A stretch of 64,000 bases of DNA from Escherichia coli (GTDB lineage: Bacteria; Pseudomonadota; Gammaproteobacteria; Enterobacterales; Enterobacteriaceae). Below the pieces are notes generated by a model that saw nothing but the letters and a program-made list of their open reading frames with translations, was not told the DNA's origin and searched no databases. Within the stretch, counting starts at the first letter, position 1, and each line of letters starts with the position of its first letter. Shown piece after piece: positions 16,749-63,379 of the stretch. Where the stretch lies: assembly GCF_024298765.1 (NCBI RefSeq), contig NZ_CP101210.1; one strand, written 5' to 3'. Position numbers and translations under genes: made by a program.

Positions 16749-16850
16749 TGCCGGATGCGGCGTGAACGCTTTACCCGACCTACAAAATCTTGCAAAATCA
16801 ATAAATTGCAGGAACGATGTAGGCCTGATAAGCGTAGCGCATCAGGCAAC
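16749..16850. repeat. REP-type palindromic repeats
   Basis: gccggatgcggcgtgaacgc...taggcctgataagcgtagcgcatcaggc, the GCCGGATGCGGCG / GCCTGATAAGCG family seen elsewhere in the window. Confidence 0.6.
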
Positions 16851-57894: not shown

Positions 57895-58240
57895 GCCTGA
57901 TGCGACGCTTAACGCGTCTTATCAGGCCCACAAAAAGCACTGTTCCCGTAGGCCGGATAAGGCGTTCATGCCGCATCCGGCAACTGCGCCATAATGCCTG
58001 ATGCGACGCTTAACGCATCTTATCAGGCCCACAAAAAGCACTGTTCCCGTAGGCCGGATAAGGCGTTCTCGCCGCATCCGGCAACTGCGCCATAATGCCT
58101 GATGCGACGCTTAACGCATCTTATCAGGCCCACAAAAAGCACTGTTCCCGTAGGCCGGATAAGGCGTTCTCGCCGCATCCGGCAACTGCGCACTAATGCC
58201 TGATGCGACGCCTGCCGCGTCTTATCAGGCCTACAAACGG
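57895..58240. repeat. Tandem BIME/REP cluster (about 3.4 units of ~100 bp)
   Basis: tgcctgatgcgacgcttaacgc(g/a)tcttatcaggcccacaaaaagcactgttcccgtaggccggataaggcgtt...gccgcatccggcaactgcgccataa repeated head to tail from 57895, 57995, 58096 and 58197. Confidence 0.85.
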
Positions 58241-58242
58241 CA

Positions 58243-58842
58243 TTATCTTTTTTGGTAGTCACACTCCACTAACACCAGCAATAACTGGCTTAGTGCCGCG
58301 TAAAAACCAAAGCTGTCATACTGTCGACAACGCGCAGCAAACTCTGGTAACCATTCCCGCAGAGCCGTCAGTGTTTTTTGCCGCAAACCGTCGATTCTTC
58401 GCGCAGGAACGGTCCCCTCTCCCAGCGAAAAATGCAGATGACTCAACAAATCGAGATAGATCGCCAGATGATCTGCCGGTTCGTTGAAATTGCCGCTGGT
58501 TTCCATCCCCGCCTCAACTAACAAGCGTTTAATCTCTTGCTCGTCCTGTTTGTAGGCCGATGCATACGGCAGCGCCGCTTGTTTGTCGGTCATCAGAAAC
58601 AGGCCGCAAAAGTCAGCGGCCAGTTCCAGACGGGCATCGTCACGTACTGTCAGAGTGGCAATACTGTTTTCCAGCCCATTCACCGCCGCAGTGAGCGGAG
58701 GTTCGCTTTTCAGCAACGAAAACCATTCAGCCATCTGCGCACTGGCGATTTGCGTCAGTTGTTCATCGTCCAGTTCACGGGAGAACAACTGCGCCAGCCA
58801 GGCGTAAACACAGGCAATCTGTTGTGCTGTCAGCGTGGTCAT
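58243..58842 (-). CDS. torD: TMAO reductase chaperone TorD
   Basis: ORF 58243..58875 (-); start [29 protein letters not shown]...; 199 aa; start overlaps the torA stop. Confidence 0.92.
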
Positions 58843-61385
58843 GATTTCACCTGCGACGTGGGAACATATTCGCACTGCGCCACCATCTCAACAGGGCCGT
58901 TAAACGCCGTCACCTGCTCCACTGTTCCGTTGTACTTCTCAATTTCCACCAGCGTGGTATGCGCACTGGTCGCCTGCGCCAACTGCGAAGTACCGATGTC
59001 GATGGTCAACACGTTGGGGTTACCGTATTTGCACAGCGCACCAGGCTCGCCGCCTTTATCTGGATCGTACCATGCCCCTTCATGAATTCGCGCCACGCCG
59101 GGTGCATAGCGGTCAGAAACCACTGCCCCTGCCAACACCTGACCGCGAGCGTTAAACACGCGTACCACATCACCGTTACGAATACCGCGCGCGCTGGCAT
59201 CCTGCGGGTTAATGAACACTGGCTCTTTGCCCGCTACCGTATATTGCTGACGCAGCGTTTCCGACTCACATAACTGCGAGTGAAGTCGGAAATCCGGATG
59301 CACAGATTGCAGATGCAACGGATACTTCTGCGAGCCGGGCCCACCGTGGGAGCGTTCGATTTTCTCAAACCACATCGGATGCCCCTGACAATCGTCGTAG
59401 TTCATATCAGCGATGGTTTTCGAGTAGATCTCAATCAGGCCACTCGGCGTGCCCAGCGGTTCGAGATCCGGATCTTCGCGGAATGCCTGGTGGCGAACAA
59501 ACATCTGCGGATGGTCAAACTCGACGTACTCTTTATTATTCCAGAAGTCATCAAACGCTGGCAGATGAACGCCGCGTCCTTTGCCCTGTTGTACACCTTC
59601 CTGCCAGATGCGTTTCAGCCAGCCCATTTCGTCCAGCCCTTCGGTAAAGGCTTCTTCGCGATTAAAGCGACGGCACAGCTCGCGGAAAATATCGAAGTCG
59701 TTGCGCGCCTCGAACTGCGGCGGCACGACCTGTTTCATGGCGATAATGCCACGATTGGAGTGGTTGCCGTACTGGTCGAGATCGTTACGCTCAAACTGCG
59801 TGGTCGCAGGCAGCACGATATCGGCAAAGCGGCAGGTTGAGGTCCACTGGTTATCTATGGCGATAACCGTTTCCAGCTTGCGCCAGCCTTCAATAATGCG
59901 GTTGATCTGCTGATGGCGATGGAACGGGTTAGTTCCGGCAAAAATACACATTTTCAGCGGCGGTAGTTTTACCGATTTACCGTTCCAGTTGATCACTTTC
60001 CCCGGTTCGAGGATCGCATCGATAAAACGGGCAATCGGAATGGTGCTGCTGTAGCCTTTGTAGTCGCTGTTGTCGTGAACAGGCGGAATCGACGTAGAGC
60101 CGGAGAAACCACTCAGAATAACGCCTTTACGCCCCGGCGTGCCTGCGCCGTTATAGTGCCAGCCAAAACCAAAACCTCCACCTGGCAGGCCAATTTGCCC
60201 CAACATCGCCGCCAGAACGACAATCATCCACGCCCACTGTTCACCGTGCTGCATACGCTGCACGCACCAGCCAGCAATAATCTGCGTTCTGTTCGCCGCC
60301 ATCTGCCGCGCCAGCCCACGAATGGTTTCGGCATTAATACCTGTCAGTTTTTCAGCCCATGCGGCATCTTTCGGCTGACCGTCTTTCTCACCCAGCAGAT
60401 ACGGCAGGAACTGCTCAAAACCTACACAGTAGTTAGCGAGGAAGTTTTTGTCGTACAGGTTTTCACTGTACAGCGTATGCGCCAGAGCCAGTTGCAGCGG
60501 CACGTCAGTTTGCGGGTTAACCGCAATGTGCTTCACATGCTCGCGCCCCAGATACTCATGGGTGGATGTGACAACCGGATCGATGCTGATGACCTCAATT
60601 TCACCGGCGGCGACTTTCGCTTTTAGCTGCTCGTAATATTCATAAACATCGTGATCCGGGCACCACCAGTTCGCTTGCTGGTTTTTCAGCAAATCGGAGC
60701 CCCACAGCACAATGGTTTTGCTGTTCTGCAATACCAGCGGCCAGGAGGTTTGCTGTTCATACACTTCCATCGAACCGACTACGCGCGGCAGGATCACCTG
60801 CGCAGCCCCGGTAGAGTAATCTCCGCCTGTACCCACGCTATTACCATGCAAGGCAATCGCTTTCGCCAGCATCCCCGAAGCGTTATGGAACATCCCCGTC
60901 GATTGCCAACCACTGGCGGTCAGCAAGGCACTCGGCCCGTGAATTTTCTGTACGCGTTCCAGTTCTTCATAGAACATGTCGAGGGCTTCATCCCAGCTCA
61001 CGCGCACAAAACGGTTATCACCGCGCTGGGAGGTGTCTCTCAGATGGCGCTTACGCAGCCAGTCCACGCGTACCATCGGGTAACGAATACGCGCCGCGTT
61101 GTGTACATGATCCGGCAATCCGGCGATCATTTTCGACGGATATTTATCCAGTTCGAACGGTTTTGCTGCCACAAAGCGACCCTCCTTCACCGTCGCGCGG
61201 ATAGCCCCCCAGTGCGACCCGGTAAGAATGCCCTCTTTCGAGATGACAGCCTCAGTCGCCGCTTGCGCCGCAGTCGCACGGCGCGGCGTTAACAATGACG
61301 GCCCCAGCATCCCGGCGACGGTTAAGCCGCCGAGTTGTGCCAGAAAACGCCGACGTGATGCCTGAAAGAGATCGTTATTGTTCAT
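58839..61385 (-). CDS. torA: Trimethylamine-N-oxide reductase TorA (molybdoenzyme, Tat signal)
   Basis: 848 aa [39 protein letters not shown]... with twin-arginine signal. Confidence 0.96.
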
Positions 61386-62557
61386 TATTTTTCTTCCTTC
61401 TTATCGCCGTGAGCTTTACCTGCGGTGTCAGACGCATTCATTTGCAGATATTTCAACAAGGTGCGTTCTTCACGTTTATCGAGGCTGGTAAAGCCAATCA
61501 TGCCGTTGAGCGTGCCGATCCAACCGTTAGCGTCAAAGTGGGATATTTCCGGTGCGCCGTGGCACTGGTTACAGGTGCCGTTGTACAGCGAATCCGCATA
61601 AGCCCAGATCGGTTTGATATCGTTCACCATGTCGCCTTTCTTCATCCACGCAGTAGCCTGCAACTTGCTCCACTCGGTATTGGTGTCGGCAACGGTGGTT
61701 TTCTCCAGCGTTTTCACCTGCTGCTGCACATCACCACGAATCGAGGCAACAAAGATGCGTTTACCTGGGAATTGGGTGAGTACACGCTGACGTCCTGCAC
61801 TTTCCGTCCAACCAGTGATTTCAATTTGCAGCCAGTCGCCGTCACGTTTAAGGACTTTCACTTCCGAAGCAGGCAGCAGAGAACCAGACGCTTCTTTATC
61901 GCCTTTCGCCGCATAAATCGGCTTAATATCAATGGAGTACAGCGTGTCACCACTATCATTAGCACTGGCGCGCAGCTCATCGAACTGCTTACGGAAGCCA
62001 CTACTCATATCCGGTAACTGGTGGGCAATACCTTTATGACAGTCGATGCAGGATTGATTATCTTTCGCTGCCACCTTCATCTGACGCGCCGCTTCAGGAT
62101 GCTGCTTGGCATGATCCATCGCATCGTAGTTATGGCAGGAGCGACAGGTTGCCGAGTTGTTTTCTTTCATTCGCGCCCATTCACGCTCGGCAAGTTCCGC
62201 GCGTTTGGCTTCGAATTTTTCAGGTGTATCAATGGAGTGGGCAATAAAGGTCTGGTAAATGTCGTTGCTCGCTTCCAGTTTGCGCTTCACCATGCCTGGA
62301 ATATCCGGCGGGATATGACAGTCATGGCATTCAGCTCGCACGCCGGAGGCGTTCTGGAAGTGCACCGACTGTTTATATTCTTCATACACCGGTTGCATAC
62401 TGTGGCAACTGACACAAAATTCGGTTGTGCTGGTGACTTTGATCCCAACGTGTGGCAATACAATCAGCGCAATGCCAATCACAATCCCAATAGCGACCAG
62501 CGCCAGTACCGACCAACGAGCACTGGGTCGGCGTAGCGCGTTCCAGAGTTTCCGCAT
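61385..62557 (-). CDS. torC: Pentahaem c-type cytochrome TorC
   Basis: 390 aa with several CxxCH motifs (CVSCH, CHDCH, CRSCH, CIDCH, CNQCH). Confidence 0.96.
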   Translation of the reverse strand: MRKLWNALRRPSARWSVLALVAIGIVIGIALIVLPHVGIKVTSTTEFCVSCHSMQPVYEEYKQSVHFQNASGVRAECHDCHIPPDIPGMVKRKLEASNDIYQTFIAHSIDTPEKFEAKRAELAEREWARMKENNSATCRSCHNYDAMDHAKQHPEAARQMKVAAKDNQSCIDCHKGIAHQLPDMSSGFRKQFDELRASANDSGDTLYSIDIKPIYAAKGDKEASGSLLPASEVKVLKRDGDWLQIEITGWTESAGRQRVLTQFPGKRIFVASIRGDVQQQVKTLEKTTVADTNTEWSKLQATAWMKKGDMVNDIKPIWAYADSLYNGTCNQCHGAPEISHFDANGWIGTLNGMIGFTSLDKREERTLLKYLQMNASDTAGKAHGDKKEEK

Positions 62558-62605
62558 AATAGCCCCTGTAAAATTATGGTTTAGTGAAGCGATCTTAATG
62601 AGTAA

Positions 62606-62668
62606 ATATGAACAGCGGCACTGGTCAGGATGAACGGCTTACGGCAGAATATGAACAGATATGAACAG
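62606..62668 (-). promoter_or_regulatory. TorR-binding tor boxes in the torC promoter
   Basis: Direct repeats of ATGAACAG (= CTGTTCAT on the torC strand) at 62608, 62651 and 62661, plus a degenerate copy at about 62629, between torC and torR. Confidence 0.75.
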
Positions 62669-62686
62669 AATGAGTAAAACCCTCTG

Positions 62687-63379
62687 ATGCCACATCACAT
62701 TGTTATTGTTGAAGATGAGCCGGTTACCCAGGCGCGATTACAATCCTACTTCACTCAGGAGGGGTATACCGTTTCCGTTACGGCGAGCGGTGCCGGGCTG
62801 CGGGAAATTATGCAGAATCAGCCGGTGGATTTAATTCTGCTGGATATTAATTTGCCCGATGAAAATGGCCTGATGTTAACCCGCGCCCTGCGAGAACGCT
62901 CAACGGTGGGGATTATTCTGGTTACGGGACGCAGCGATCGGATTGACCGTATTGTTGGGCTGGAAATGGGCGCAGACGATTACGTCACCAAACCGCTGGA
63001 ACTGCGCGAACTGGTAGTACGGGTGAAAAATCTGCTCTGGCGAATCGACCTCGCGCGACAAGCTCAACCGCACACACAGGACAACTGCTATCGCTTTGCC
63101 GGTTATTGCCTGAATGTGTCGCGCCATACGCTGGAGCGGGATGGCGAGCCGATTAAACTGACCCGCGCAGAGTATGAAATGTTGGTGGCATTTGTGACGA
63201 ATCCGGGCGAAATTCTTAGCCGTGAACGTCTGCTGCGTATGCTCTCTGCGCGTCGGGTGGAAAACCCTGACTTGCGCACCGTCGATGTGTTAATTCGTCG
63301 TTTACGCCATAAACTCAGCGCGGATTTACTGGTGACGCAACATGGCGAAGGTTATTTCTTAGCCGCTGATGTGTGCTGA
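62687..63379 (+). CDS. torR: Response regulator TorR (OmpR family)
   Basis: 230 aa MPHHIVIVEDEPVTQARLQSYFTQEGYTVSVTASGAGLREIMQNQPVDLILLDINLPDENG.... Confidence 0.95.
   Translation: MPHHIVIVEDEPVTQARLQSYFTQEGYTVSVTASGAGLREIMQNQPVDLILLDINLPDENGLMLTRALRERSTVGIILVTGRSDRIDRIVGLEMGADDYVTKPLELRELVVRVKNLLWRIDLARQAQPHTQDNCYRFAGYCLNVSRHTLERDGEPIKLTRAEYEMLVAFVTNPGEILSRERLLRMLSARRVENPDLRTVDVLIRRLRHKLSADLLVTQHGEGYFLAADVC

What the first reader, a model, noticed from the sequence alone, without database searches (positions are those of the whole stretch)
62558..62686. Tor boxes between torC and torR
Three clear direct repeats of ATGAACAG and one degenerate copy (CTGTTCAT on the torC strand) lie in the short divergent spacer, the arrangement expected for TorR-dependent activation of torCAD. 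torR and torT also overlap convergently at 63352-63379.
Basis: partly seen in the sequence, partly recalled or inferred. Interest (0 to 1): 0.2.

Follow-up and report, generated by a model that had tools for sequence, protein, structure and literature searches.

The report
Known TorR binding boxes of E. coli
The repeats are the four textbook "tor boxes" where the regulator TorR binds between the torR and torCAD genes of Escherichia coli to switch on TMAO respiration, so the finding is correct but ordinary.

Summary
The window is E. coli chromosome. The 129-bp spacer 62558-62686 lies between torC (61385-62557, -) and torR (62687-63379, +).

Read on the torC strand, it holds three exact copies of CTGTTCATAT: box1 62659-62668, box2 62649-62658 and box4 62606-62615. 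It also holds one 7/10 copy, CCGTTCATCC (box3, 62628-62637). All four are in the same orientation, with start-to-start spacing of 10, 21 and 22 bp.

These are letter for letter the published tor boxes. They are identical to K-12 MG1655, which differs only at three positions downstream of box4.

The exact decamer occurs nowhere else in the 64 kb. The layout is conserved in Citrobacter, Edwardsiella, Budvicia, Grimontia and Photobacterium, always with box4 8 bp upstream of a TAnnAT -10.

The 28-bp convergent torR/torT overlap (63352-63379) is also real and matches the K-12 annotation.

Nothing here is new. One side observation concerns other genomes, not this window. The distal tandem decamer varies in copy number: one copy in 14 and three copies in 79 of 5,426 complete E. 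coli genomes.

The parts
62659..62668 (-). tor box1, CTGTTCATAT (distal; half of the high-affinity TorR site)
   Evidence: published sequence in PMC9239176; identical in K-12
62649..62658 (-). tor box2, CTGTTCATAT, tandem with box1 (TTCATA-N4-TTCATA)
   Evidence: the tandem core is found just upstream of torR in 11 of 30 TorR-orthologue loci, and once more within a further 5, against 0.2 expected by chance over all 80 loci
62628..62637 (-). tor box3, CCGTTCATCC (7/10 match, low-affinity site)
   Evidence: PMC9239176; the TTCA core is invariant across 8 Enterobacterales spacers
62606..62615 (-). tor box4, CTGTTCATAT (promoter-proximal site, 8 bp upstream of the torC -10)
62592..62597 (-). torC promoter -10 hexamer TAAGAT. 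No recognisable -35 (GTGCCG), as expected for an activator-dependent promoter. Inferred transcription start near 62585.
   Evidence: PMC10845959 places the -10 at ...AAGAT; TAnnAT is conserved at a fixed 8 bp from box4 in 6 genera; relaxed scan. The start position is inferred, not measured here.
62622..62650 (+). Candidate torR promoter: TGGTCA (62622-62627), 17-bp spacer, CAGAAT (62645-62650). Inferred start near 62657, inside box2.
   Evidence: relaxed scan, 8/12; CTGACCAGTG and the xAxxAT hexamer are conserved in Escherichia, Citrobacter and Edwardsiella. Inferred.
61385..62557 (-). torC, pentahaem c-type cytochrome (first gene of torCAD)
   Evidence: NCBIfam NF011606, 883.5 bits against cut-off 455
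58839..61385 (-). torA, TMAO reductase
   Evidence: NF011682, 1614.5 bits
58243..58842 (-). torD, TorA-specific chaperone
   Evidence: annotation of the identical strain 104 (offset +56299); NF003442, 253 bits
62687..63379 (+). torR, OmpR/PhoB-family response regulator
   Evidence: NF008034, 428.7 bits against cut-off 275, full length
63352..64000 (-). torT 3' part (runs off the window); overlaps torR by 28 bp at 63352-63379
   Evidence: NF008185, 303.8 bits

Best explanation
The spacer is the well-characterised torR-torCAD control region of Escherichia coli. TorR is an OmpR/PhoB-type response regulator phosphorylated by TorS when TorT/TorS sense TMAO. It binds four same-orientation decamers (tor boxes).

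The tandem pair box1-box2 is the high-affinity site. It is bound whether or not TorR is phosphorylated, and it lies over the torR transcription start, so it represses torR.

Phospho-TorR then fills the weaker box3 and box4. These sit two helical turns apart on the same face of the DNA. Box4 lies immediately upstream of a -35-less promoter (TAAGAT -10), where TorR recruits RNA polymerase to transcribe torCAD.

Shown here: the sequence identity, the spacing, the gene context and the cross-genus conservation. Taken from the literature: TorR binding, autoregulation and cooperativity. Inferred: the exact transcription start positions.
For: - The box sequences and spacing are exact and match the published boxes quoted in PMC9239176.
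- The spacer is identical to K-12 across boxes 1-4.
- The flanking genes pass the TorC, TorA, TorD, TorR and TorT equivalog models, and RefSeq annotates them the same way.
- EMSA showed TorR binding to boxes 1, 2 and 4, but not to box3 alone (PMC9239176).
- Genomic SELEX gave a single TorR peak genome-wide, in the torR/torC spacer (PMC5934670).
- TorR-P bound the torCAD promoter while ArcA-P and FNR did not (PMC10845959).
- Unphosphorylated TorR binds the high-affinity sites and blocks RNA polymerase (summary of Ansaldi 2000 in PMC5294996).
- Phylogenetic footprint: the 10 / 21-22 / 22 bp four-box layout, with a TAnnAT 8 bp after box4, is kept in Citrobacter, Edwardsiella, Budvicia, Grimontia and Photobacterium.
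- The 67-bp box array is identical in 5,100 of 5,415 E. coli genomes that hold it.
Against: There is no direct binding or expression measurement for this strain's spacer. It differs from K-12 at three positions (62603, 62571, 62562), all downstream of box4. The strict sigma-70 scan finds no promoter in the spacer, which fits activator dependence but leaves the start sites inferred. The primary papers (Simon 1995, Ansaldi 2000) could not be read here.
Confidence: 0.97

Rival explanations
1. The repeats are a chance or neutral small tandem/dispersed duplication with no regulatory role.
For: Short two- or three-copy repeats do occur elsewhere in the window: five other places have an 8-mer present 3 times within 129 bp. 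The distal pair does slip in copy number in nature.
Against: All three exact 10-mers in the 64 kb lie in this spacer. Only 20 of 20,000 shuffles reach the observed repetition. The TTCAT cores and their spacing are invariant from Escherichia to Budvicia, while the flanking spacer bases diverge. TorR binding is published for the identical sequence.
Confidence: 0.01
2. The motifs are mainly sites for another regulator: ArcA (same protein family, similar direct-repeat sites), FNR (a half-site-like TTGCT-N4-AAGAT over the -10 in K-12), or the Dnd phosphorothioation proteins that recognise GAAC/GTTC.
For: PMC10845959 notes putative ArcA and FNR motifs in the torC promoter. PMC9239176 shows that DndCDE can compete with TorR at the boxes in a dnd-carrying Salmonella.
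Against: ArcA-P and FNR did not bind the torCAD promoter in vitro. In this window the FNR-like half-site is weaker still (TTACT instead of TTGCT). Dnd competition needs a dnd system, which was not looked for here, and it acts on top of TorR control rather than replacing it.
Confidence: 0.02

Closest known systems
tor boxes of the E. coli K-12 torCAD promoter / torR operator (Simon et al. 1995 Mol Microbiol 17:971; Ansaldi et al. 2000 J Bacteriol 182:961; cited from reference lists, content partly from my own knowledge)
   Same: All four decamers, their order, orientation and 10/21/22-bp spacing, the 129-bp spacer length, the flanking genes and the 28-bp torR/torT overlap.
   Different: Three single-base differences between box4 and the torC ATG: 62603 A vs G, 62571 T vs C and 62562 C vs T on the torC strand. 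The window's version is the commoner one among complete E. coli genomes: 3,498 of 5,416 spacers are at least 99% identical to the window, and K-12 falls in the 97.7% class.
[quoted passage not shown]
   Same: The same box sequences are quoted, with TorR EMSA on each box.
   Different: A different genus. In that strain the Dnd phosphorothioation proteins compete with TorR at the boxes. No dnd genes were looked for in this window.
Direct-repeat sites of OmpR/PhoB-family response regulators, for example PhoB pho boxes (my own knowledge)
   Same: A winged-helix regulator binds head-to-tail to direct repeats with a period of about 10-11 bp. The proximal repeat abuts a promoter that lacks a -35. The half-site CTGTTCATAT resembles the pho half-site CTGTCATA.
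   Different: A different regulator and signal. The tor layout adds a distal high-affinity pair that doubles as the regulator's own operator, with single boxes spaced two helical turns apart.
TorR sites of Shewanella and Vibrionaceae (TTCATA-N4-TTCATA; my own knowledge for S. oneidensis)
   Same: The same hexamer tandem lies just upstream of torR on the opposite strand in two Shewanella loci (L024, L027), one Vibrio locus (L015), Photobacterium indicum and Grimontia.
   Different: In most of those loci torC is not the divergent neighbour, and boxes 3 and 4 are not evident.

Membership tests
TorR-dependent torCAD promoter (tor boxes) | Three copies of the decamer CTGTTCATAT plus one degenerate CCGTTCATCC, all in the same orientation as torC | tested here: met
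   published sequences quoted in PMC9239176
TorR-dependent torCAD promoter (tor boxes) | Located in the short spacer between divergently transcribed torR and torCAD | tested here: met
   ORFs, RefSeq annotation of an identical genome, NCBIfam equivalogs
TorR-dependent torCAD promoter (tor boxes) | Box1-box2 tandem (10 bp), with box3 and box4 at whole helical turns (21 and 22 bp), so all are on one face of the helix | tested here: met
   spacings 10, 21 and 22; the same spacings in five other genera
TorR-dependent torCAD promoter (tor boxes) | Sequence identity with the experimentally studied K-12 region | tested here: met
   126 of 129 spacer positions identical, with all differences outside the boxes
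TorR-dependent torCAD promoter (tor boxes) | TorR protein physically binds the boxes and TMAO induces torCAD through them | not testable with these tools
   Literature only, on identical box sequences: EMSA (PMC9239176), Genomic SELEX (PMC5934670), TorR-P binding (PMC10845959)
TorR-dependent torCAD promoter (tor boxes) | Box1-box2 overlaps the torR transcription start (autorepression) | tested here: inconclusive
   The best candidate torR promoter, TGGTCA-17-CAGAAT, predicts a start near 62657, inside box2, and is conserved. No transcript data are available here. The literature statement comes via PMC5294996 and my own knowledge of Ansaldi 2000.
OmpR/PhoB-family response-regulator direct-repeat site | The cognate regulator has a receiver domain plus a winged-helix output domain of the OmpR/PhoB type | tested here: met
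   TorR matches TorR full length and, more weakly, ArcA, OmpR and PhoB models

The most novel reading that the evidence does not exclude
Nothing in the window itself is new. The most novel reading left open concerns the distal tandem decamer (box1-box2). It may be a slippage-prone micro-repeat whose copy number in natural E. coli sets the strength of torR autorepression and of torCAD inducibility. One copy is seen in 14 genomes, two in the great majority and three in 79 of 5,426 genomes. This would make it a small heritable tuning knob for TMAO respiration. The window carries the standard two-copy state. The copy-number variation is shown; its regulatory effect is not.
Probability: 0.3. Interest if true: 0.3.

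Novelty: already known. Interest (0 to 1): 0.07.

Why it matters
The finding matters only as a correct annotation. It marks the cis-regulatory region through which E. coli turns on TMAO respiration and keeps TorR levels in check, and this has been understood since the 1990s. It shows that the first-stage reader can recognise a real regulatory repeat array from sequence alone. It adds no new biology for this window.

Tried and rejected
- The strict sigma-70 and terminator scan of the spacer found nothing. A relaxed scan was needed, which fits an activator-dependent promoter.
- Rfam found no RNA family in the spacer or the torC leader.
- The primary papers could not be opened by DOI or PMC id, so their content is cited second-hand or from memory.
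- The literature search for 'TTCATA' was swamped by unrelated hits.
- I considered whether the perfect 10-nt repeat AATGAGTAAA flanking the box array (62597-62606 and 62669-62678) marks extra TorR half-sites. I rejected this as unsupported. It is 9/10 in K-12 and not conserved in Citrobacter, Edwardsiella or Budvicia. Only the box4-side copy is in a 10-bp register with a box.
- I considered ArcA or FNR sites. These are rejected on published negative binding.
- No terminator was found in the torR/torT overlap.

Full report
**What is there.** The window is Escherichia coli chromosome. A 1.2-kb stretch around the finding is 100% identical to many complete genomes and is present in 5,414 of 5,426. 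ORF listing and the RefSeq annotation of an identical genome (strain 104) give these genes:

| Gene | Coordinates | Strand |
|---|---|---|
| torD | 58243-58842 | - |
| torA | 58839-61385 | - |
| torC | 61385-62557 | - |
| torR | 62687-63379 | + |
| torT | 63352 to past the window end | - |

All five products pass NCBIfam equivalog models above the curated cut-offs. TorR scores 428.7 bits against 275 and TorC 883.5 against 455. The finding's coordinates, 62558-62686, are exactly the 129-bp torC-torR spacer.

**The repeats.** The table gives each box as read on the torC strand.

| Box | Coordinates | Sequence | Match to consensus |
|---|---|---|---|
| box1 | 62659-62668 | CTGTTCATAT | 10/10 |
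| box2 | 62649-62658 | CTGTTCATAT | 10/10 |
| box3 | 62628-62637 | CCGTTCATCC | 7/10 |
| box4 | 62606-62615 | CTGTTCATAT | 10/10 |

All four share one orientation, with start-to-start spacing of 10, 21 and 22 bp. The exact decamer occurs three times in the whole 64 kb on both strands, all of them here. Only 20 of 20,000 dinucleotide shuffles of the spacer contain any 8-mer three times.

**Identity with the known element.** PMC9239176 quotes the TorR sites as box1, box2 and box4 = 5'-CTGTTCATAT-3' and box3 = 5'-CCGTTCATCC-3', which is an exact match. Alignment with K-12 MG1655 shows the spacer identical through all four boxes. The only three differences lie between box4 and the torC ATG, at window positions 62603, 62571 and 62562. 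The window's haplotype is the commoner one: 3,498 of 5,416 genomes are at least 99% identical to it over the spacer, and K-12 is in the 97.7% class.

**Published function for this sequence.**
- TorR shifts boxes 1, 2 and 4, but not box3 alone.
- Genomic SELEX finds a single TorR peak in the whole genome, in this spacer, with or without acetyl phosphate (PMC5934670).
- TorR-P binds the torCAD promoter, while ArcA-P and FNR do not (PMC10845959).
- Unphosphorylated TorR also occupies the high-affinity sites and keeps RNA polymerase off (PMC5294996, summarising Ansaldi 2000).
- From my own knowledge of Ansaldi et al. 2000, which I could not open here: box1-box2 covers the torR start and mediates TMAO-independent autorepression, and boxes 3 and 4 are filled cooperatively by phospho-TorR and must lie on the same helical face.

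**Independent sequence evidence.** A scan of one genome per species with the TorR protein returned 12 loci with the same divergent torC-torR arrangement. In E. albertii, Citrobacter werkmanii, two Edwardsiella, two Budvicia, Grimontia and several Photobacterium, the four-box layout recurs with 10 / 21-22 / 22-bp spacing. The TTCA(T/C)A cores are invariant while the bases between boxes diverge.

Box4 is always followed, after 8 bp, by a TAnnAT hexamer. In the window this is TAAGAT at 62592-62597. PMC10845959 places the torC -10 at this hexamer.

No -35 is recognisable upstream of it (GTGCCG). This fits an activator-dependent promoter in which box4 sits where a PhoB-type activator would.

On the other strand, TGGTCA-17-CAGAAT (62622-62650) is the best torR promoter candidate. 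It is conserved and predicts a start near 62657, inside box2. Both start positions are inferences.

The tandem core TTCA(T/C)A-N4-TTCA(T/C)A lies immediately upstream of torR in 11 of the 30 orthologue loci (TorR at least 50% identical). It occurs elsewhere within a further 5 of them. It is absent from the 50 more distant paralogue loci, and 0.2 occurrences are expected by chance over all 80 loci. It occurs once in the window.

**The second claim.** torR ends with TGA at 63377-63379 and torT ends with TAA (on the - strand) at 63352-63354. The two genes therefore overlap tail to tail by 28 bp, exactly as annotated in strain 104 and K-12. No intrinsic terminator is predicted there.

**Verdict.** Both the observation and the interpretation are correct, and the feature is the already-known TorR control region. 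One refinement is that the spacer works in both directions, activating torCAD and repressing torR. Novelty is none and interest is low.

**Side observations.**
- Among complete E. coli genomes the 67-bp box array is identical in 5,100 of 5,415.
- The distal tandem decamer varies in copy number. In 14 genomes one copy is lost, giving a 119-bp spacer with three boxes. This occurs on at least two haplotype backgrounds and includes two O157:H7 strains.
- In 79 genomes one copy is gained, giving a 139-bp spacer with five boxes, for example O121 RM8352. Whether this changes regulation was not tested.
- A perfect 10-nt repeat AATGAGTAAA flanks the array in this strain. It is imperfect in K-12 and not conserved beyond Escherichia.

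Noticed in passing
Other E. coli genomes, position equivalent to window 62649-62668 (loci L083-L086): The distal tandem tor box varies in copy number in nature. 14 of 5,426 complete genomes have one copy (3-box, 119-bp spacer), including O157:H7 PV15-279 and F3113, O45:H2 FWSEC0003 and O166:H15 JNE21-009. 79 genomes have three copies (5-box, 139-bp spacer), for example O121 RM8352. The 3-box allele sits on at least two haplotype backgrounds, which suggests recurrent slippage. I did not check whether this has been published.
   Followed up: partly
window 62597-62606 and 62669-62678: A perfect 10-nt direct repeat, AATGAGTAAA, brackets the box array, one copy abutting box4 and one abutting box1. 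It is 9/10 in K-12 and not conserved in Citrobacter, Edwardsiella or Budvicia, so it is probably fortuitous. The box4-side copy puts a CTCATT hexamer in a 10-bp register with box4.
   Followed up: yes
window 62603, 62571, 62562: The three differences from K-12 in the spacer all fall between box4 and the torC ATG. One lies between box4 and the -10 (TTTACT vs TTTGCT), which weakens the FNR-like half-site discussed in PMC10845959. The other two lie in the inferred 28-nt torC leader, where that paper proposes a Moco-responsive element. The window haplotype is the majority form.
   Followed up: partly
window 57951-58231: Three tandem copies, about 101 bp apart, of the Rfam family naRNA4 (a REP/BIME-type repeat; 75-81 bits against a gathering score of 59.5) fill the gap between cbpM and the end of torD.
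   Followed up: no
E. coli strain D10 (NZ_CP010157.1, hit H1) and strain OkiPb01695 (H40): In strain D10 the torR region matches in two pieces that span 1,978 bp instead of 1,201, with an IS1A transposase annotated under the match. This suggests an IS1 insertion in or next to torR. In OkiPb01695 the spacer matches in two pieces with only 78% coverage.
   Followed up: no
window 3299-3348, 16784-16826, 26923-27014, 32614-32882, 35719-35912: Other Rfam hits above gathering score elsewhere in the window: the PyrC leader, ES036, ES056, a tRNA followed by an RtT-like element, and Ysr251.
   Followed up: no
E. coli genome collection: Six of the matches to the torC-torR region are on records labelled as plasmids. 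I did not examine them.
   Followed up: no
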